Sequence record: MK962756
Length of the DNA stretch: 64,000 nucleotides
DNA from: Shigella phage JK42
Reading direction: 5' to 3' (one strand)
This document shows positions 1 to 33,800 of this stretch, in pieces. A program made the translations under genes and the position numbers. A model generated the notes under the pieces. That model saw only the letters and a program-made list of their open reading frames with translations. It had not been told where the DNA came from and did not search any database. Each line of letters opens with the position of its first letter. Position 1 is the first letter of the stretch.

Positions 1-2214
1 TTATTTGGCCGCTTCCACGGCCTTCATGAATTTAACGATTTGAGCGACCTGTTCTTTTGAAAGAGTACCACGTCGTCCCATGTAGTCTGACACAATATGA
101 TAATTGGTTTCGAATTCAATAACCATTTTATCATCATTATCGTAAGCATTATCTTTAAGCTTATCGAAAATTTTAGCACACAATTCTAACTTCTTATTCA
201 GGTCTGTATTAGTAGCACCTGCGAATCGATTCCATCCCCAACGATTATTTACTGTTGAGAGTTTTGCAAAGTCTTTACTGATTTCTTTGTTCTTAGAGCT
301 AAAATACTTACTAAGGAAGTTAAGCTCTTCATTACGAGTAATATGATTCAAATAAGGCTGTGCTCTACGACTTGGTGATACATACTCATCATAATCCACT
401 TTATCGATTAGCGTAATATAGTCATTAATTGATTTTTCGAACAAGCATTCTACTTCACCAAGTTTACGAACTTTCTTAGCAATCTGTGGACGAACTACAG
501 TGAACTCTTTAATACCTGACAAATCAGCAATACGGGTCAAGAAATTGGAGTCATAGTTCAACCAACCTTTATCTGCGTCAAGACATTCAGCATTAGAACG
601 ATTACGAACTATAGCATAACCTTGGATTTCATCAGCTTCACTCGCTGGAATAAAGAGATCTTCTGATACCCAAACATCGTTTTCATTCTTAAAGAACCGA
701 TGAGCACTCGGGGATTTAGGACGAGGCCCATTAGAACGAGTCTTGACTTCAATCCATGGCTTAACGATTTGTAAAAGCTCTGAAGTCTTGTACATGTTAA
801 TGTTGTCGCCATCAAAGATAACTTTAAGACGTTCCAGAAGTTTCATTGCATCTTCGTCTGTAGGGTCAACGAATAGTACGCTTTTACCAAAACCGCGTGG
901 AACTTTACCGGTTAATTTAACCTCGTCTTTAGACATTTCAATTGAATTAAGAGCTCGCATTAATGGAACGCGTCCCTTAACGTCGTCAATAACAATTTCA
1001 ACGTTTTTAATGTTAATGCCAATCAGACTGTTAATTGAAATAGTTGTCGATGAGCTACCACTTTCACGAATACGACGAAGACGAGGGGATTCAACGATAT
1101 CGTATACGACACCAAGATTACACCACTCAGGCCCCATTTTAAAACGTTTGTACAACTCAGAATAAGTTAGTTGTTCTTTAGAGTATTTCAGTGATTCAAT
1201 ATTAGACCCAGCCTTTTCCATGTATTTACGAGCGGTATAACCAAGAGAATCAATTTCACGGAACACATGACGCGGGTATTTACAATCAATCCATTTCTTA
1301 GAATCTTCAGCGAACAATTTAGCATCGATTTCTGCAACGCGTTTATGGATATTTGCTACTGTACGTTTATCAAATGACAATGCTTCACGAGACGGGGCTA
1401 CATCTAGTTCACCCATAGGGAATTTAATATAAGCTGTAGTGCATCGCGTCATCATCCATGTTTGTTCTTTAATAACACTTCCGATTGGATATACAATACC
1501 ACCATAAACAGCCATGATATTACCACGTTCACCCCATGGAGCTTCCTTGGCCAAATATACATCGTCAAATTCAGGAAAGTATTTAATATCTTTAACACCA
1601 CGAACTTCTGCAATATCACCTAGAGGACGCATAACATATGCAATTTCGGATGCGAACTTTTCAAAATCTTCCGGGTTAACCGGTACAACTACTTCTACAC
1701 CCGTACGGTCATCAGGGCCCATCTTATCTACAAAGGTTGGCTTAATTTGTGGACCCGTGTCATCTTGGTAGATTACGTAACCACGAACTTCACCGTTGTG
1801 ATAAGACGTAAGGTTAAACGTATCGGTATATGCTAGTGGAGCTTTAGAGCCGAGTCCGAATCCACCAATGAAATCGTTACTCGATGTTTTAGTTGAAGCA
1901 AAATATGAGTTATAGATTCCTGGCTCTTCATCATTACCTCGAATGGTGAAATCGCTCATACCAGGACCAAAGTCTCGAACTACAAAACGTGGGTCTAAAC
2001 GACCTGGAGCCTGAACAATAAACTTATCAGTGCAACCATTAAGAATTTGTCCATCAATACAGTTTGTGATTAATTCACGTACACAAGCCAATTCTTTGTT
2101 TGTATAAAGGTCATTAGACAAAATCTTATAAACTTTGCTATTGCCTTGAATAGTGAATGCTGTGCTTTTACCACCAGAACCAATAATCGTTTCTTTAGCC
2201 GTTTCAATAATCAT
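1..2214 (-). CDS. rIIA: rIIA membrane-associated protein (GHKL-type ATPase-like N-terminus)
   Basis: 737-aa complete ORF with stop at 1..3; N-terminal sequence and length match remembered T4 rIIA (725 aa); first gene of the canonical T4 map. Confidence 0.85.
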   Translation of the reverse strand: MIIETAKETIIGSGGKSTAFTIQGNSKVYKILSNDLYTNKELACVRELITNCIDGQILNGCTDKFIVQAPGRLDPRFVVRDFGPGMSDFTIRGNDEEPGIYNSYFASTKTSSNDFIGGFGLGSKAPLAYTDTFNLTSYHNGEVRGYVIYQDDTGPQIKPTFVDKMGPDDRTGVEVVVPVNPEDFEKFASEIAYVMRPLGDIAEVRGVKDIKYFPEFDDVYLAKEAPWGERGNIMAVYGGIVYPIGSVIKEQTWMMTRCTTAYIKFPMGELDVAPSREALSFDKRTVANIHKRVAEIDAKLFAEDSKKWIDCKYPRHVFREIDSLGYTARKYMEKAGSNIESLKYSKEQLTYSELYKRFKMGPEWCNLGVVYDIVESPRLRRIRESGSSSTTISINSLIGINIKNVEIVIDDVKGRVPLMRALNSIEMSKDEVKLTGKVPRGFGKSVLFVDPTDEDAMKLLERLKVIFDGDNINMYKTSELLQIVKPWIEVKTRSNGPRPKSPSAHRFFKNENDVWVSEDLFIPASEADEIQGYAIVRNRSNAECLDADKGWLNYDSNFLTRIADLSGIKEFTVVRPQIAKKVRKLGEVECLFEKSINDYITLIDKVDYDEYVSPSRRAQPYLNHITRNEELNFLSKYFSSKNKEISKDFAKLSTVNNRWGWNRFAGATNTDLNKKLELCAKIFDKLKDNAYDNDDKMVIEFETNYHIVSDYMGRRGTLSKEQVAQIVKFMKAVEAAK

Positions 2215-14692: not shown

Positions 14693-14700
14693 TATTTATA
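14693..14700 (-). promoter_or_regulatory. late promoter motif TATAAATA
   Basis: Plus-strand tatttata, i.e. TATAAATA on the minus strand, ~32 nt upstream of the soc ATG; soc is a late gene. Confidence 0.45.
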
Positions 14701-14706
14701 ACTTAA

Positions 14707-15228
14707 TCAGTAACCATTATCCTGACGTTCAAAGTTGTGTTGGTTTTTCAAGTAGTAAAGTTTAAAGATTTCTTCAGCCGAAAGACCTAGACCTTGGAAC
14801 ATATTTAGAACGAAATGCAGAATATCAATCATTTCAAATTTAATTTCAAGCTGGTCTTCAGGAGACAGTTCATCGATACGACGATTTCGATATTCAGCAT
14901 GTTGTGCCTTCCACGGCTTCCATACACTGCTGGCGGCTTTTTCACCATTGCTCATACCGCCAAGTGAAGTCAGCAGTTCACGGAATTCATCGTCAATATA
15001 ATCTTTCTGATTCCGCAGCCAATCAACAACATCACCAGCAGTGGCCAAATCATCAGGATGTTTGTTATGTTCAGGCTTGTCATTTGCCAGACGAACCTGT
15101 AAAGATTTCTGCATATCAAGCATTACCTGCAATGGGTCTTTATCTTCGTGAATCAGAGCATTAAAATAAGCTTCTTCTGCTTTATCAACACCAGAAATAA
15201 GTTGTGAACATTCGTTAAAGTGTGCCAT
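14707..15228 (-). CDS. 56: dCTPase/dCDPase (MazG-like dCTP pyrophosphatase)
   Basis: Matches remembered T4 gp56 (MAHFNEC...DPLQVMLDMQ...IDDEFRELLTSLG...YYLKN); start taken at the second ATG, the upstream in-frame ATG is part of an AAAGGA ribosome-binding context. Confidence 0.85.
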   Translation of the reverse strand: MAHFNECSQLISGVDKAEEAYFNALIHEDKDPLQVMLDMQKSLQVRLANDKPEHNKHPDDLATAGDVVDWLRNQKDYIDDEFRELLTSLGGMSNGEKAASSVWKPWKAQHAEYRNRRIDELSPEDQLEIKFEMIDILHFVLNMFQGLGLSAEEIFKLYYLKNQHNFERQDNGY

Positions 15229-15316
15229 TATTTTTCCTTTCAATTCAGTATAAGAGAGTTAATTCTACCATTAATTTTATAAAGCGTAATAAATAATAGG
15301 TAACTAAGGAGATATT

Positions 15317-15514
15317 ATGTTTAAACTTCCATCGTTAATCAACGCTATTAAAGGCAATAAAAAGAAAACTGCTATAGCTGCAATAGTTGTAGGTGGCATT
15401 ATTTCATGGAACTTCGGGATTGCACCGTTGTTAGTTGCCCATGGTGTTATGGTTCCTTCTGTTCCTTTGGATACTGTAGTTGATTTGGCCTTTGCTATTA
15501 TAGGGCTTGTTTAA
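15317..15514 (+). CDS. small hydrophobic (membrane) protein, plus strand
   Basis: 65 aa, largely hydrophobic; strong SD TAAGGAGA 6 nt upstream of ATG; convergent with gene 61, divergent from gene 56. Confidence 0.45.
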   Translation: MFKLPSLINAIKGNKKKTAIAAIVVGGIISWNFGIAPLLVAHGVMVPSVPLDTVVDLAFAIIGLV

Positions 15515-16533
15515 ATCTTCGAATAACGAGATAATCTCATTTTAGCATGCAACCCACTTGAAATATTCTGTTTCATATATTCTAAAATTTCTTGTGGTGT
15601 TGCATTTTCTTTCATTACCATATCATTCACATCCTTTGATCTCCATGGAGCTCGGTCCCAGAACATGACACGTTCGCCTGCATCAACTAATCGCTTCATG
15701 CGAGCTATAGTATCTGGATGCCTAGGTTCATTATCCATTACCCATACCCGACGTTCTTTAAATGGTACCACATCTAAATCTATCGAGCCGCCTGTAATAG
15801 CGATTGCATTGGGTATGAATAAACTATCAATAGGGCCTTCCATTACCCAGACGTCCCCTTCCTTAACACGTTCAACACCATAAATTTTTGTTGCAGACTC
15901 AAACGCTTTAATAGTGATATATTTCTGAGGAGCATCTTTACGAAGTGCACGTCCTTGGAATGACTCGGCCTTCCCATCTTTATTAAAAATAGGAATAACT
16001 AAACGTGGTTCGGGAATCTCTTTCTTATACGTACCAGGTTGAATCTTGTTGACCAATTTGGGCCATTCTAATGTGAACCATAATCTGTTCCACGATTCTT
16101 TAGGAATACACCGAGACTTAACATATTTCACAATAGGATGCTCTTCAGGCAACTTGTCCAGACGAGAACAAGACGGCAAAGAATTTATAGTCTTTTTCTC
16201 CGGTTCTGGTTTATGTTCATGAACCTTTTCAATCTTTGGTTCCATTCTAGCTTTTTCTTTACGAACTTCCATTAGATATTCGCGATAAAGCTCTTCATCA
16301 TACTCTTTTAAGTATCCGGAAATTGTATTGTGGTATTGACAGTTATAGCAATGTACATTACCAGGAGTACCACCGTAATACCATCCGCGGGCTTTCATTG
16401 CATCTGTCTGGGAGTCGCCACAAACTGGACAACGAAACGTTAATTTAAATGTGCTTGAATTATTGATTTGTCTAAAACGAGGGAGGTGAGAAAACGCACG
16501 ATAAGCAAATTCATTATCTATCCATTCAGCCAT
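15511..16533 (-). CDS. 61: DNA primase
   Basis: 340 aa; N-terminal zinc ribbon CPVCGD...CYNCQYH; matches T4 gp61 in length and position. Confidence 0.9.
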   Translation of the reverse strand: MAEWIDNEFAYRAFSHLPRFRQINNSSTFKLTFRCPVCGDSQTDAMKARGWYYGGTPGNVHCYNCQYHNTISGYLKEYDEELYREYLMEVRKEKARMEPKIEKVHEHKPEPEKKTINSLPSCSRLDKLPEEHPIVKYVKSRCIPKESWNRLWFTLEWPKLVNKIQPGTYKKEIPEPRLVIPIFNKDGKAESFQGRALRKDAPQKYITIKAFESATKIYGVERVKEGDVWVMEGPIDSLFIPNAIAITGGSIDLDVVPFKERRVWVMDNEPRHPDTIARMKRLVDAGERVMFWDRAPWRSKDVNDMVMKENATPQEILEYMKQNISSGLHAKMRLSRYSKI

Positions 16534-17258: not shown

Positions 17259-17918
17259 TTAACCTCGATTCATAAATGCATTAAATATTTGGTCATCAAC
17301 AGAAATTTCTAATTCGACTTCAATTGCTTCAGCCTTTTCTTCAGGTGGTAATTCGTATCCACACACTACAATTTTTTCATCGATATCAAAATATATAGAA
17401 GCAATACGATTAATGTTATTTTCAGTTAAGTCCAAATCAACATCAACATCTTTTTGGCCTACACTTAGAGGATAACTAATACGGGTTATTTTATTATCTT
17501 TAACAAAGAGTCCACCAACATACTCTGTACTACGTTTGAAGTTTACACGTTTCCGAATTGAAAGATATGATACATCTTTACCGTGAGCTCGGCTCATAGG
17601 ACATAATGAATAGCTAGAATAAGAGATGTCAAATCCTACACCTTCAATATGAGCCAACGTGTCATGATTAAACCAATTATAATCATATGCCAAATCCATT
17701 ATATTGTAATATGTGAAAGGCACAGGATTAACATCATATGTTGTACCTTTAAAATCTGCCCAGGCAACGATTTCGTTATCTTTAACAATTACAAAAATTA
17801 CACCAATATGGTATCCGTTATTATTTTCATTCGGCGTTATATTATAACATTGTGCATTAGGAAATTTACCATATTTAAATGGCGCATTTTTGTGCATATA
17901 ATAAATCATATTATTCAC
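17259..17918 (-). CDS. hypothetical protein
   Basis: 219-aa ORF. Confidence 0.5.
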   Translation of the reverse strand: MNNMIYYMHKNAPFKYGKFPNAQCYNITPNENNNGYHIGVIFVIVKDNEIVAWADFKGTTYDVNPVPFTYYNIMDLAYDYNWFNHDTLAHIEGVGFDISYSSYSLCPMSRAHGKDVSYLSIRKRVNFKRSTEYVGGLFVKDNKITRISYPLSVGQKDVDVDLDLTENNINRIASIYFDIDEKIVVCGYELPPEEKAEAIEVELEISVDDQIFNAFMNRG

Positions 17919-18204
17919 CTGTGATTTCGGTTACGATATCTTTGTTATCGAAATTAGGGTCACAATACAAAACATAGTTGTACTGCATGATACCGCCAGA
18001 CTTAAGTTGTTCAACAACTTTATTAACCATATTAGGACGGTCTCGTTTAGTGATGTTCATGATATCAGAGAAGATTTGTTGTTCAACATCTTCTTGATTT
18101 GCAGTCATTGACCACTCACAGAGGTCTTTATCATAACCTGCCGTAACTGGAGCCGGTGCACATGATACTGCAAGTAAGATTGCTGCCAATGATAACTTTT
18201 TCAT
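17911..18204 (-). CDS. sp: Spackle periplasmic protein (superinfection exclusion / lysis inhibition)
   Basis: 97 aa with signal peptide; GYDKDLCEWSMTA...IMNI.KRDRP...LKSGG.MQYNYVLYCD matches remembered T4 Sp. Confidence 0.75.
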   Translation of the reverse strand: MKKLSLAAILLAVSCAPAPVTAGYDKDLCEWSMTANQEDVEQQIFSDIMNITKRDRPNMVNKVVEQLKSGGIMQYNYVLYCDPNFDNKDIVTEITGE

Positions 18205-18267
18205 TTTAACTCCTTAGTTGATTTGATAGGACTACTATACTATAGTCCATCTATAATGTAAACAAGT

Positions 18268-18516
18268 TTATTCTTTTTCGCGAATAATAATTACTTGTTG
18301 AGGCTGCTGAGCCGATTTCTTTTCGGCAACGATAGACCAAATTAAAGTTCCAATCCAACCAACCATCGTCCAGTTAAAGAGTAAAGATACAAAGAAGATT
18401 GCTGTTGTGCTTTTTGTGCCACGAATAAGTGCGATTACCCAAGGCAACATGTAAATGATGATTGAACCAATACCTGCGATTAAAACTGCTACTGAACTAG
18501 CTACGAATAATTCCAT
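18268..18516 (-). CDS. small membrane protein (two predicted TM helices)
   Basis: 82 aa, two long hydrophobic segments. Confidence 0.5.
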   Translation of the reverse strand: MELFVASSVAVLIAGIGSIIIYMLPWVIALIRGTKSTTAIFFVSLLFNWTMVGWIGTLIWSIVAEKKSAQQPQQVIIIREKE

Positions 18517-18577
18517 GTTAATTTCCTCTTGATTTGTTATGTTTATAGTATCTTGTTTTAACTTTGGTGTAAACCAA

Positions 18578-18946
18578 TTAATTAAATTTGTTTAAACGTT
18601 CAATACACTGGACGTAGTTATTCGCGATTTGTTTCTGGGTAGGCTCTTTACCAGTTGTTTCAACATAGCGAATGAATGCGATTTCAGTAGCCTGTAGACA
18701 ATGTTCTTTAACGCGTTGTTCTTTTGACAATGCTACGGTATCAGAGTCACGATAACGTTGAGCATGGGCATCAGCTTGAATCATTCGATTACCTACAGTA
18801 ACCGGGTCTTCCACTTCAACTTTAGGTTGGTCGTACTGTTTAACATTCGGATTGTAAATCAATTGGCCGACGTTATTAGGGATAAAGCCATGGGCACCAC
18901 ATCCGGTTAATCCAAACACCATTGCTAAAGCGATTAATTTTTTCAT
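18578..18946 (-). CDS. putative lipoprotein
   Basis: 122 aa; signal peptide with lipobox LTGC; early promoter upstream (18978-19014). Confidence 0.55.
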   Translation of the reverse strand: MKKLIALAMVFGLTGCGAHGFIPNNVGQLIYNPNVKQYDQPKVEVEDPVTVGNRMIQADAHAQRYRDSDTVALSKEQRVKEHCLQATEIAFIRYVETTGKEPTQKQIANNYVQCIERLNKFN

Positions 18947-19017
18947 TTCAATTTCCTCTGTAGTTGATAGAAAGATAGTAACACAGTATGTGGGGCTTGT
19001 AAACAGTTATTTTAAAA

Positions 19018-32784: not shown

Positions 32785-32865
32785 TTAATTTCCTTTAGAC
32801 GAGTTATTGTCTTTTGTTTGTTGATGAACTTATTATACTCCAAATGGGACCGAAGTCCCATTGCT

Positions 32866-33243
32866 TTAATTACCAATTGTATATTTTGCTTTCAAAGTCC
32901 AGTCATCTTTCTGTTTAAAAGATATAACACGGAAGTTATTAGTCAGGCCAAACAGATCTTCACGAGCAGAGTCTTCAATAACAATCAAGCCCCAGTCTTC
33001 AAGCAACTGAGCAATCGAATCACGTCGTTGGTAGTCTTCACCATCAATATCAACCTGACGTCCGTCCATACGCAACATTTCTTTAAAGTGGACGATGTAG
33101 TATTTACCTTGCTTTTGGAGGATATGACAGGACTGATAAAGAACTTTATCCTTGTTATTAGCGATGCCCATACGGGTCAAAGTCTCTTTGACTTTCAGAA
33201 AATCTTCAGGGTTCTTCAATTTAATTTCAATCATTTTTACCAT
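32866..33243 (-). CDS. regA: RegA translational repressor
   Basis: 125 aa; ...[35 protein letters not shown]...[11 protein letters not shown]... matches remembered T4 RegA. Confidence 0.9.
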
Positions 33244-33800
33244 TCCAATGCTAATTTTTTAAATTGTTTTTGTTCTTTCACATTTTTTGTAACTTCTTTG
33301 AGAAACTCATCAGTGACCATGGCCTTCAGTTCTTTAAGGACTATTGGCAACTTGTTATTTTTTTCAAGGAGCCGCTTATACTCGGTAGCATCATTCATGT
33401 TGATTGTGTAATGTTTCATCAACAGTTTGATAACTAGTAACTCTGAAGTGTCTTCAACTAGTTTAGCCCATTTAGAGAATCGACGACCACGCGGAATTGC
33501 AGCCATCATATAGTTGAAGTGCGCTTCATCACTTAATTCAGAACCGACTAAGTTCATCATGTAAACAGCTGGCATACATTCCGGGAACTGGGATAATGAG
33601 TTCTCAACCATAAATTTTGAGTAGTCGACCTGAGCAATTGACATAGATTTCTTTTCATTAATAGCATTAATGATTTTAAAGAATTCATTCTCAGGTTTTT
33701 CTTTAAACATATCAGCACATTTTTGAATCGCATCAGCGTCATTAGACTTCCATGCAATTTGGTGCTCGTTAAGCTGGACGTCATCATCGAATAAGTTCAT
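33237..33800 (-). CDS. 62: clamp loader small subunit
   Basis: 187 aa, same length as T4 gp62; position between regA and 44. Confidence 0.8.

What the first reader, a model, noticed from the sequence alone, without database searches (positions are those of the whole stretch)
15317..15514. Plus-strand small membrane-protein gene in an otherwise minus-strand region
A 65-aa hydrophobic ORF with a strong Shine-Dalgarno (TAAGGAGA) is transcribed divergently from gene 56 and converges on gene 61, with overlapping stop codons. In such a compact region an opposite-strand gene needs its own promoter in the 73-bp divergent spacer and may cause transcriptional interference with gene 61.
Basis: seen in the sequence. 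Interest (0 to 1): 0.35.

Follow-up and report, generated by a model that had tools for sequence, protein, structure and literature searches.

The report
Conserved late-promoter small membrane-protein gene
The 65-codon plus-strand ORF is a real gene found across T4-type phages (annotated in RB69, missing from the T4 reference annotation); it most likely makes a tiny inner-membrane protein late in infection, and its function is unknown.

Summary
Window 15317-15514 (+) is a 65-aa ORF with SD TAAGGAGA. It diverges from gene 56 (dCTPase), converges on gene 61 (primase) with overlapping stop codons, and is the only credible plus-strand gene in the 64 kb.

The window is an RB69-like T-even phage (99% identical to Shigella phage JK45). 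The ORF is RB69ORF029w / RB32ORF030w / PHROG 2024, named "hypothetical protein" by nearly every source.

- **Distribution:** orthologues sit in the same place and orientation in at least nine T4-type genera. They are unannotated in the T4 reference (NC_000866 17738-17938) and in IME08, F48 and PEi20.
- **Coding:** window versus T4 gives saturated dS, dN/dS about 0.2 and codon-position differences of 30/12/40.
- **Protein:** one transmembrane helix, predicted N-in/C-out, with invariant mid-membrane Trp-Asn and Pro.
- **Promoter:** an ATAAATA core (T4 late promoter TATAAATA; here AATAAATA at 15288-15295) lies 12-33 nt before the start codon in 10 of 11 lineages. It abuts the MotA-type middle promoter of gene 56.

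No Pfam, NCBIfam, PADLOC, PDB or fold match gives a function. My best reading is a dispensable, late-expressed bitopic inner-membrane accessory protein acting through helix-helix association. Interference with gene 61 is possible but is not the conserved feature. This is an ordinary, already catalogued gene of modest interest.

The parts
15317..15514 (+). CDS of the 65-aa small membrane protein (orthologue of RB69ORF029w / RB32ORF030w; PHROG 2024)
   Evidence: ORF and translation. PHROG 2024 match, E 2.6e-27, full length. Protein 100% identical to the annotated JK45 protein. Window vs T4: dN/dS about 0.2, codon-position differences 30/12/40. Orthologues in many genera.
15305..15312 (+). Shine-Dalgarno sequence TAAGGAGA
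   Evidence: Read directly. A GGAGG/AGGAG element is kept before the start codon in all 11 lineages examined.
15288..15295 (+). Late-promoter-like element AATAAATA (T4 consensus TATAAATA, positions -13 to -6). Predicted transcript start near 15301, giving a leader of about 16 nt.
   Evidence: One of only 7 WATAAATA sites in 64 kb, against 17.6 expected. The ATAAATA core is kept 12-33 nt upstream of the start in 10 of 11 lineages, against 0.005 expected per 35-nt window. A at -13 occurs in 9 of 50 listed T4 late promoters (PMC2988020). The transcript start is inferred, not measured.
15262..15289 (-). Neighbouring middle (MotA-type) promoter for gene 56. MotA box TTACGCTTTA at 15289-15280, 12-nt spacer, -10 TAGAAT at 15267-15262. 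It sits back-to-back with the late element.
   Evidence: Sequence reading. It corresponds to RB69 predicted middle promoter Pm:16038, score 21.6 (PMC1524935 supplement). T4, RB51 and P8 carry TGCTT(A/TA/CA)...TATAAT upstream of gene 56. The T4 record places oriA in this transcript.
15511..15514 (.). 4-nt overlap of the convergent CDS ends (TTAA: the ORF stop TAA and the gene 61 stop TAA on the opposite strand)
   Evidence: The same arrangement occurs in T4, RB51, IME08, F48, Proteus ABTNLPp2 and PEi20. It is absent in CJ20, JD18 and P8.
14707..15231 (-). Gene 56 (dCTPase), the divergent neighbour
   Evidence: PHROG 173, E 1.3e-45. Annotation in JK45 and RB69.
15511..16533 (-). Gene 61 (DNA primase), the convergent neighbour
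   Evidence: PHROG 47, E 1.5e-101. Annotation in JK45 and RB69.

Best explanation
This is a genuine protein-coding gene: the orthologue of RB69ORF029w, and of an unannotated gene in T4.

**Expression (inferred).** Transcription starts at its own gp55-type late promoter (AATAAATA, 15288-15295) in the 85-bp spacer. That promoter lies back-to-back with the MotA-dependent middle promoter that drives gene 56 in the other direction. A short leader of about 16 nt carrying a strong SD gives efficient translation late in infection.

**Product (predicted).** The product is a 65-aa bitopic inner-membrane protein.
- A basic N-terminal amphipathic helix sits in the cytoplasm.
- One transmembrane helix spans about residues 18-41.
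- A short acidic, hydrophobic C-terminal helix lies on the periplasmic side.

**Mechanism (inference).** The invariant Trp31-Asn32 in the middle of the membrane helix, together with Pro37, mark a helix-helix contact. Through it the protein either self-associates or docks onto the membrane helix of a partner. I think it most likely tunes a late envelope event, such as lysis timing, lysis inhibition or membrane integrity.

**Status.** It is accessory rather than essential. Because no terminator follows it in this phage, its transcript probably also runs antisense into gene 61. I regard that as a side effect of the compact layout.
For: **Coding.**
- The frame is conserved from Mosigvirus-type phages to T4, Gaprivervirus, Dhakavirus, Jiaodavirus, Marfavirus, Gelderlandvirus, Kanagawavirus and Moonvirus, always on the strand opposite to gene 61 at its 3' end.
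- Window vs T4: 55% amino-acid identity, dS saturated, dN/dS about 0.2, differences by codon position 30/12/40.
- A strong SD is present in all lineages.

**Late promoter.**
- The ATAAATA core is found in 10 of 11 lineages, 12-33 nt upstream of the ATG. It is the perfect TATAAATA in IME08 and F48.
- Its background frequency is 0.00015 per nt.
- WATAAATA is depleted in the window (7 sites vs 17.6 expected), and another of the few sites sits just upstream of the late gene soc.
- The A(-13) variant is documented as common (PMC2988020; PMC1524935).
- No sigma-70-like site lies on the plus strand.

**Membrane protein.**
- TMHMM gives 21-41 for the RB69 orthologue.
- AlphaFold gives pLDDT 79-80 with helices at 3-11/13, 15-41 and 51-62.
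- K+R counts are 4-6 in the N-flank and 0-1 in the C-flank in six lineages.
- W31, N32 and P37 are invariant in 28 diverse sequences. G43, P47 and G63 are nearly invariant, and position 52 is acidic in all but one sequence.

**Accessory status.**
- There is no such ORF between 61 and 56 in Karamvirus, Krischvirus, Slopekvirus, Biquartavirus or Serratia phage 92A1.
- The copy in phage a48 is frameshifted.

**Established knowledge.** A polar Asn in the middle of a membrane helix drives helix association. I state this from my own knowledge; I did not check it in a paper here.
Against: - There is no experimental evidence of transcription, translation or membrane location for any family member. Five literature searches for it found nothing; two others failed on term format and one was a promoter-consensus search.
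- The published HMM scan of RB69 late promoters does not list a site here (31 sites).
- The -13 base is T in only two lineages, and the Gelderlandvirus copy lacks the core.
- Function is by elimination. There is no Pfam, NCBIfam, PADLOC or PDB sequence hit and no PDB fold hit.
- The only label suggesting a function among family members ('Holin', on one UniRef entry) is unsupported. The few other non-hypothetical names ('putative membrane protein', 'DNA packaging ATPase', 'dCTP pyrophosphatase') add nothing.
- T4-type phages already have a complete lysis set: T, RI, RIII, E and spanins (established knowledge).
Confidence: 0.45

Rival explanations
1. The protein is itself a pore former: a second small holin, pinholin or viroporin, or a type-I-toxin-like peptide. 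It would oligomerise through its membrane Asn and depolarise the inner membrane late in infection. Early and middle read-through from gene 61 would act as a natural antisense brake before late times.
For: Small size, a single membrane helix with an invariant polar Asn, and inferred late expression. The minus-strand operon 61 to 56 has no terminator across the ORF, so antisense RNA is expected. One UniRef entry is labelled 'Holin'.
Against: The C-terminus is hydrophobic and acidic, not the charged hydrophilic tail typical of holins. No endolysin gene is linked to it. No holin family is matched. The 'Holin' label is an unsupported automatic name, and nearly all other members are 'hypothetical'. 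No dedicated antisense promoter stands above chance: there are 4 sigma-70-like sites in the region against 7 expected.
Confidence: 0.15
2. It is a late-acting protective factor at the envelope. It could exclude superinfecting phage, protect against lysis from without, or counter a membrane-associated host abortive-infection system. It would work by binding a host or phage membrane protein.
For: It is an accessory gene with patchy distribution among T4-type genera. It diverges faster than its neighbours: 55% vs 73-74% identity for gp56 and gp61, window vs T4. Conserved residues cluster in the outer half of the membrane helix and the periplasmic segment. The exclusion genes sp and imm lie nearby in this phage type.
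Against: Known exclusion genes (imm, sp) are early genes, whereas this one has only a late-type promoter. It shows no similarity to any PADLOC, Pfam or NCBIfam model.
Confidence: 0.15
3. It is a membrane-bound morphogenesis helper, for example assisting membrane-associated prohead initiation or another assembly step.
For: Late expression is typical of morphogenesis genes, and it is conserved across the core T-even genera. Established knowledge: T4 prohead assembly starts at the inner membrane.
Against: It is absent from several related genera that share the same assembly pathway. Phage a48 has a frameshifted copy. It has no similarity to any structural or chaperone family.
Confidence: 0.1
4. 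The selected function is the RNA. A late antisense transcript would silence or interfere with gene 61 (primase) expression, and the ORF would be incidental.
For: Convergent layout with overlapping stops in 7 of 10 lineages, and no terminator after the ORF in the window, T4 or RB69.
Against: Purifying selection acts at the protein level, with invariant residues. CJ20 has a strong hairpin plus U-run directly after the ORF (z = -6.05). JD18 has a GC hairpin there. P8 has a homing-endonuclease gene between the ORF and gene 61. No conserved RNA structure is found downstream.
Confidence: 0.1
5. It is a chance ORF in an intergenic gap that merely houses promoters.
For: It is short and has no known domain. 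It is not annotated in T4, IME08, F48 or PEi20.
Against: The frame, the SD and the residue pattern are conserved down to about 15-30% identity. Second codon positions are strongly conserved (12 differences vs 30 and 40).
Confidence: 0.03

Closest known systems
RB69ORF029w / RB32ORF030w (RB51ORF032) / JK45 KMC32_gp027; PHROG 2024
   Same: Orthologues. The JK45 protein is 100% identical. The PHROG profile is matched over its full length (E 2.6e-27). Position and orientation between 56 and 61 are the same.
   Different: Nothing substantive. The family has no assigned function.
T4 lysis regulators in the inner membrane (holin T, antiholin RI)
   Same: They are small phage inner-membrane proteins with one membrane segment, made late and acting through protein-protein contacts in or at the membrane. 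This is an analogy from established knowledge.
   Different: There is no sequence or fold similarity. The protein has only about 20 periplasmic residues, whereas T and RI act through sizeable periplasmic domains. It lacks a charged C-terminal tail. It is not linked to lysis genes.
Type I toxins and viroporins (small single-pass oligomerising membrane peptides)
   Same: Similar size, a single hydrophobic helix with a functionally conserved polar or aromatic pair, and a gene lying antisense to other transcription.
   Different: No dedicated antisense RNA gene is evident. Toxicity and channel activity are untested. At 65 aa with a structured C-terminal helix, it is longer than most type I toxins.
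soc: a late gene embedded in the early, minus-strand region
   Same: A late-type TATAAATA element (14693-14700, -) sits directly upstream of a small gene inside the early region, 0.6 kb away. This shows that late promoters are used locally.
   Different: soc is on the same strand as its neighbours and encodes a soluble capsid decoration protein.

Membership tests
PHROG 2024 / RB69ORF029w family | Full-length sequence match to the family profile | tested here: met
   E 2.6e-27, residues 1-65 on profile positions 1-65 of 65. tblastn finds 692 phage records. The profile search finds 120 clusters, all 41-73 aa.
PHROG 2024 / RB69ORF029w family | Position at the 3' end of gene 61, on the opposite strand, on the gene 56 side | tested here: met
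PHROG 2024 / RB69ORF029w family | Single transmembrane helix with the W-N...P...G...P core | tested here: met
   W31, N32 and P37 invariant; G43 and P47 nearly invariant. TM 21-41.
T4-type late genes (gp55/gp33/gp45-dependent) | TATAAATA element about 6 nt upstream of the transcript start, close to the gene | tested here: inconclusive
   AATAAATA at 15288-15295, 21 nt before the ATG. The core is conserved in 10 of 11 lineages and perfect in two. The A(-13) variant is documented. However, the site is not in the published RB69 HMM list.
T4-type late genes (gp55/gp33/gp45-dependent) | RNA 5' end at the predicted site, appearing late and dependent on gp55 | not testable with these tools
   No transcriptome data are held, and the literature searches found none for this locus.
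Holins | Small protein with at least one transmembrane domain | tested here: met
Holins | Highly charged, hydrophilic C-terminal domain | tested here: not met
   The C-terminal 24 residues have no K or R and end in AFAIIGLV. The charge cluster is N-terminal.
Holins | Genetic linkage to an endolysin or lysis cassette, or a match to a holin family | tested here: not met
   The neighbours are replication and nucleotide-metabolism genes. There is no Pfam hit even at E up to 10.
Holins | Lethal, timed hole formation | not testable with these tools
   Needs expression and lysis assays.
Type I toxin-antitoxin loci | Small hydrophobic membrane peptide | tested here: met
Type I toxin-antitoxin loci | Dedicated antisense RNA gene with its own promoter | tested here: inconclusive
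   There is only one 9/12 sigma-70-like match on the minus strand, at 15342-15314, and the region has fewer such matches than shuffled controls (4 vs 7.0). Antisense RNA would come from read-through of the 61-56 operon (inference).
Superinfection-exclusion proteins Imm / Sp | Sequence relationship and early expression | tested here: not met
   There is no paralogue in the window. PHROG gives only family 2024. No early-type promoter lies on the plus strand.

The most novel reading that the evidence does not exclude
A gene overlooked in the T4 reference annotation, conserved across at least nine T4-type genera, encodes a late viroporin-like or lysis-modulating inner-membrane protein. Its invariant mid-membrane Trp-Asn would form an oligomeric channel or clamp the holin's membrane helix. 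That would make it a previously unrecognised component of T-even lysis or lysis-inhibition control. It would be wired to a middle-to-late switch in which its promoter overlaps the oriA-type middle promoter of gene 56.
Probability: 0.15. Interest if true: 0.6.

Novelty: already known. Interest (0 to 1): 0.27.

Why it matters
T4 is one of the best-studied viruses, yet its reference annotation leaves a 309-bp "empty" gap between dam and 61. That gap holds this conserved gene. A late-made, 65-aa membrane protein with invariant mid-membrane residues is a cheap, testable candidate for an unassigned role in lysis timing, membrane integrity or exclusion.

The locus also shows a compact arrangement in which a late promoter and a MotA-type middle promoter sit back-to-back and fire in opposite directions. 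The middle promoter is the one that makes the oriA primer transcript in T4.

For annotation, the practical lesson is that this ORF should be called in T4, IME08, F48, PEi20 and similar genomes. For this window itself the finding is ordinary: the gene is already annotated as a hypothetical protein in essentially identical genomes.

Tried and rejected
1. **Function by homology.**
   - Pfam (E up to 10), NCBIfam, PADLOC and PDB sequence profiles gave nothing meaningful.
   - Foldseek against PDB gave no hits.
   - Foldseek against BFVD gave only family members and two weak 63-aa phage proteins.
2. **Wider relatives.** An exhaustive HMMER profile search of 1.84 billion representatives found only 6 proteins, all in the family. 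A word-indexed profile search found 120 clusters, all T4-type phage proteins of 41-73 aa.
3. **Paralogues in the window.** None were found.
4. **A conserved terminator or RNA structure downstream of the ORF inside the 3' end of gene 61.**
   - The window and T4 each fold into a local stem (z = -2.0 and -3.1).
   - Seven lineages share no consensus pairs.
   - Neither my scan nor the published TransTerm list has a terminator there.
   - I rejected this as a conserved element.
5. **A sigma-70 or early promoter for the ORF.** None lies on the plus strand.
6. **Published evidence for expression or function.** Five searches looked for it and found nothing. Two more failed on term format, one search for transcription-start data returned nothing, and the Miller 2003 T4 genome review is not held.
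7. **The 'Holin' label** on one UniRef entry was rejected as unsupported.
8. **The other long plus-strand ORF** (32818-33411) was rejected as antisense to regA/62.

Full report
**1. The observation**

Window 15317-15514 (+) is an ATG-initiated 65-codon ORF. It reads MFKLPSLINAIKGNKKKTAIAAIVVGGIISWNFGIAPLLVAHGVMVPSVPLDTVVDLAFAIIGLV.

- TAAGGAGA lies at 15305-15312.
- The ORF stop (TAA, 15512-15514) and the minus-strand stop of the next gene (15511-15513) overlap.
- The neighbours are gene 56 dCTPase (14707-15231, -; PHROG 173, E 1.3e-45) and gene 61 primase (15511-16533, -; PHROG 47, E 1.5e-101).
- With the conserved gp56 start (MAHFNEC, as annotated in JK45 and RB69), the divergent spacer is 85 bp, not 73 bp.
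- In a greedy non-overlapping ORF set, 99 of 102 ORFs are on the minus strand. The other two plus-strand ORFs have no SD. I checked one (32818-33411), and it is antisense to regA/62.

The lone plus-strand gene is therefore real as described.

**2. Identity of the window and of the ORF**

The 56-61 stretch is 99.2% identical to Shigella phage JK45 and 97-98% identical to many RB69-like coliphages.

- The ORF is annotated there as a hypothetical protein (JK45 KMC32_gp027, 100% identical). In RB69 it is RB69ORF029w.
- It matches PHROG 2024 (unknown function) over its full length, E 2.6e-27.
- RB32ORF030w, as annotated in RB51 (locus tag RB51ORF032), is the same gene in a T4-type genome.
- Nearly all names attached to cluster members in public sources are "hypothetical protein". 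The exact T4 protein exists only in an assembly-derived source, not as an NCBI protein.

**3. T4 has it too, unannotated**

In NC_000866 the 309-bp gap between dam (ends 17625) and gene 61 (17935-18963) contains a 66-codon ORF at 17738-17938 (+). It has SD AAAGGAGG and the same TTAA stop overlap with gene 61. It is 55% identical to the window protein.

The 2006 comparison of T4-like genomes treated RB69's numbered ORFs as lacking T4 orthologues. It lists RB69ORF029w only as a predicted membrane protein, with the transmembrane helix at 21-41 (PMC1524935).

**4. Distribution**

A small ORF sits at the 3' end of gene 61 on the opposite strand, towards gene 56, in all of the following:

| Genus | Example phage | Length | Annotated? 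|
|---|---|---|---|
| Tequatrovirus | T4, RB51 | 66 aa | not in T4; yes in RB51 |
| Mosigvirus | RB69 | 65 aa | yes |
| Gaprivervirus | CJ20 | 65 aa (homologous ATG; CDS annotated from 30 nt upstream) | yes |
| unclassified Yersinia phage | vB_YenM_P8 | 65 aa | yes |
| Dhakavirus | IME08 | 66 aa | no |
| Jiaodavirus | JD18 (JD18_010) | 63 aa | yes |
| Marfavirus | F48 | 66 aa | no |
| Gelderlandvirus | Proteus phage ABTNLPp2, Salmonella phage S16 type | 69 aa | yes |
| Kanagawavirus | PEi20 | 61 aa | no |
| Moonvirus | Citrobacter phage Merlin | not checked (tblastn hit only) | yes |

Other inserted genes (dam, mobE, a MazG-like gene) always lie on the gene 56 side. Only in phage P8 does a homing-endonuclease gene separate the ORF from gene 61.

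Where 61 and 56 abut, there is no such ORF: Krischvirus, Slopekvirus, Biquartavirus, Serratia phage 92A1 and the Karamvirus examined.

An exhaustive profile search of 1.84 billion representative proteins found only family members. A second profile search found 120 clusters, all T4-type phage proteins of 41-73 aa.

**5. It is coding**

- Window vs T4: dS is saturated (pS 0.71), dN is 0.43 and dN/dS is about 0.2. Differences by codon position are 30/12/40.
- Closely related pairs give the same picture: T4 vs RB51 is 2/0/6 and P8 vs CJ20 is 3/0/4.
- The protein evolves faster than gp56 and gp61 (55% vs 73-74% identity), but the frame, the SD and a residue pattern persist down to about 15-30% identity.
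- In 28 diverse members, W31, N32 and P37 are invariant. G43, P47 and G63 are nearly invariant, and position 52 is acidic in all but one.

**6. The protein**

AlphaFold models from 13-row and 28-row alignments have pLDDT 79-80. They show helices at 3-11/13, 15-41 and 51-62.

In six lineages the N-flank carries 4-6 Lys+Arg and the C-flank 0-1. That predicts N-in/C-out topology.

The best 19-residue hydrophobic window is 22-40, which puts the invariant Trp-Asn pair in the centre of the bilayer. From established knowledge of membrane-helix association, a buried Asn is a strong driver of helix-helix binding. This is an inference, not a test.

**7. Its promoter**

AATAAATA at 15288-15295 lies 21 nt before the ATG.

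- T4 late promoters are an 8-bp TATAAATA at -13 to -6. A replaces T at -13 in 9 of the 50 listed T4 sites (PMC2988020). The -13 T is poorly conserved in related phages (PMC1524935).
- WATAAATA is depleted in this window: 7 sites against 17.6 ± 3.5 expected.
- One of those few sites is directly upstream of the late gene soc (14693-14700, -), where the RB69 study also predicts a late promoter.
- The ATAAATA core is present 12-33 nt upstream of the start codon in 10 of 11 lineages, within otherwise diverged spacers. It is the perfect TATAAATA in IME08 and F48.
- Its background frequency is 0.00015 per nt, so about 0.005 occurrences are expected per 35-nt window.
- No sigma-70-like site lies on the plus strand.

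Against this, the RB69 HMM list of 31 late promoters has no entry here. The Gelderlandvirus copy lacks the core. Nothing has been measured.

The predicted transcript start is near 15301, giving a leader of about 16 nt (inferred).

**8. The spacer is a two-way switch**

On the minus strand, TTACGCTTTA (15289-15280), a 12-nt spacer and TAGAAT (15267-15262) form a MotA-type middle promoter for gene 56. It coincides with RB69's predicted Pm:16038, one of the higher-scoring sites in that list of 32 (score 21.6).

T4, RB51 and P8 have TGCTT(A/TA/CA)...TATAAT upstream of gene 56. The T4 record places oriA in that transcript.

The late element abuts or overlaps the MotA box, in the opposite orientation, in every lineage I read.

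**9. What happens downstream**

No intrinsic terminator follows the ORF in the window, T4 or RB69.

- Local stems in the 3' end of gene 61 (z = -2.0 and -3.1) are not conserved: seven lineages share no consensus pairs.
- In CJ20, where the ORF does not abut gene 61, it is followed by a 19-bp hairpin plus a U-run (z = -6.05).
- In JD18 it is followed by a GC hairpin with a UUCG loop.

Antisense transcription into gene 61 is therefore likely in this phage. It is not the conserved property of the locus.

**10. Function**

No database gives a function. The gene is probably dispensable: it is absent from several related genera, and the copy in phage a48 is frameshifted in an A-run.

My best reading (confidence 0.45) is a late, bitopic inner-membrane accessory protein. 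It would act through helix-helix association, most likely on a late envelope event such as lysis timing or membrane integrity.

The rivals are:
- a pore former or type-I-toxin-like peptide (0.15);
- a late exclusion or counter-defence factor (0.15);
- a membrane-bound assembly helper (0.10);
- an RNA-only antisense regulator of gene 61 (0.10);
- a chance ORF (0.03).

It fails two defining features of holins: it has no charged C-terminal tail and no linkage to lysis genes. I therefore do not file it as a holin, despite one automatic label.

**11. Verdict**

The gene is already catalogued as a hypothetical protein (RB69ORF029w, PHROG 2024), so it is not new.

What this analysis adds:
- the unannotated T4 orthologue, and other unannotated copies;
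- the breadth of the family;
- the conserved late-promoter core set back-to-back with the gene 56 middle promoter;
- the invariant mid-membrane Trp-Asn.

Interest is modest (0.27).

Noticed in passing
L002 3739-3939 (= NC_000866 17738-17938, + strand): The T4 reference genome has an unannotated 66-codon orthologue in the 309-bp dam-61 gap. It has SD AAAGGAGG, an upstream GATAAATA, and the same stop overlap with gene 61.
   Followed up: yes
L008 1580-1780 (-), L011 1132-1332 (-), L013 about 1955-2140 (-): Orthologues are also unannotated in Dhakavirus IME08, Marfavirus F48 and Kanagawavirus PEi20. IME08 and F48 carry a perfect TATAAATA upstream.
   Followed up: yes
window 15262-15289 (-): A MotA-type middle promoter for gene 56 (TTACGCTTTA, 12 nt, TAGAAT) lies back-to-back with the late element. 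It matches RB69 Pm:16038 and corresponds to the T4 promoter whose transcript primes oriA.
   Followed up: partly
whole window; sites at 14693, 15288, 48002, 55873, 59042, 59265, 63334: The late-promoter word WATAAATA is strongly depleted in this early region: 7 sites against 17.6 expected, and all 100 shuffles had at least 7. This suggests selection against stray late promoters. The site at 14693-14700 (-) sits just upstream of soc.
   Followed up: partly
L005 2699-2816 (+); L009 about 2229-2245: In CJ20 a very stable hairpin plus U-run (z = -6.05) lies between the convergent ORF and gene 61, probably a bidirectional terminator. JD18 has a GC hairpin with a UUCG loop in the 17-nt gap.
   Followed up: partly
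L006 2400-2608: Phage a48 has a frameshift in an A-run of the orthologue, so only the C-terminal 41 codons are annotated. This is either a real pseudogene or a homopolymer sequencing error. A few truncated or chimeric copies also occur in metagenome assemblies (P0033, P0036-P0038).
   Followed up: partly
window 32818-33411 (+): A 197-codon plus-strand ORF has no SD and lies entirely antisense to regA (32866-33243) and the adjacent gene 62-like ORF. It is spurious.
   Followed up: yes
window 15243 vs 15231 (-): The mechanical ORF for gp56 starts at a TTG (178 aa). The conserved and annotated start is the ATG at 15231 (MAHFNEC). This changes the spacer length from 73 to 85 bp.
   Followed up: yes
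window 15545-15610 and L002 3975-4030 (+): Local long-range stems occur in the 3' end of gene 61 in the window (z = -2.0) and in T4 (z = -3.1). An alignment of seven lineages gives no consensus pairs, so they are probably chance.
   Followed up: yes
public records (no window coordinates): Names attached to family members or neighbours are misleading. Examples: 'Holin' (UniRef, OE5505), 'dCTP pyrophosphatase' (UniRef, IME341), 'DNA packaging ATPase' (SAKp28, and a 33-codon ORF in phage P8), and several 'molybdenum ABC transporter' labels on small early ORFs of phage P8.
   Followed up: no
L005 3861-4274 (+): CJ20 (Gaprivervirus) has a second opposite-strand gene (CJ20_018, 137 aa) just beyond the 5' end of gene 61. 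I did not examine it.
   Followed up: no
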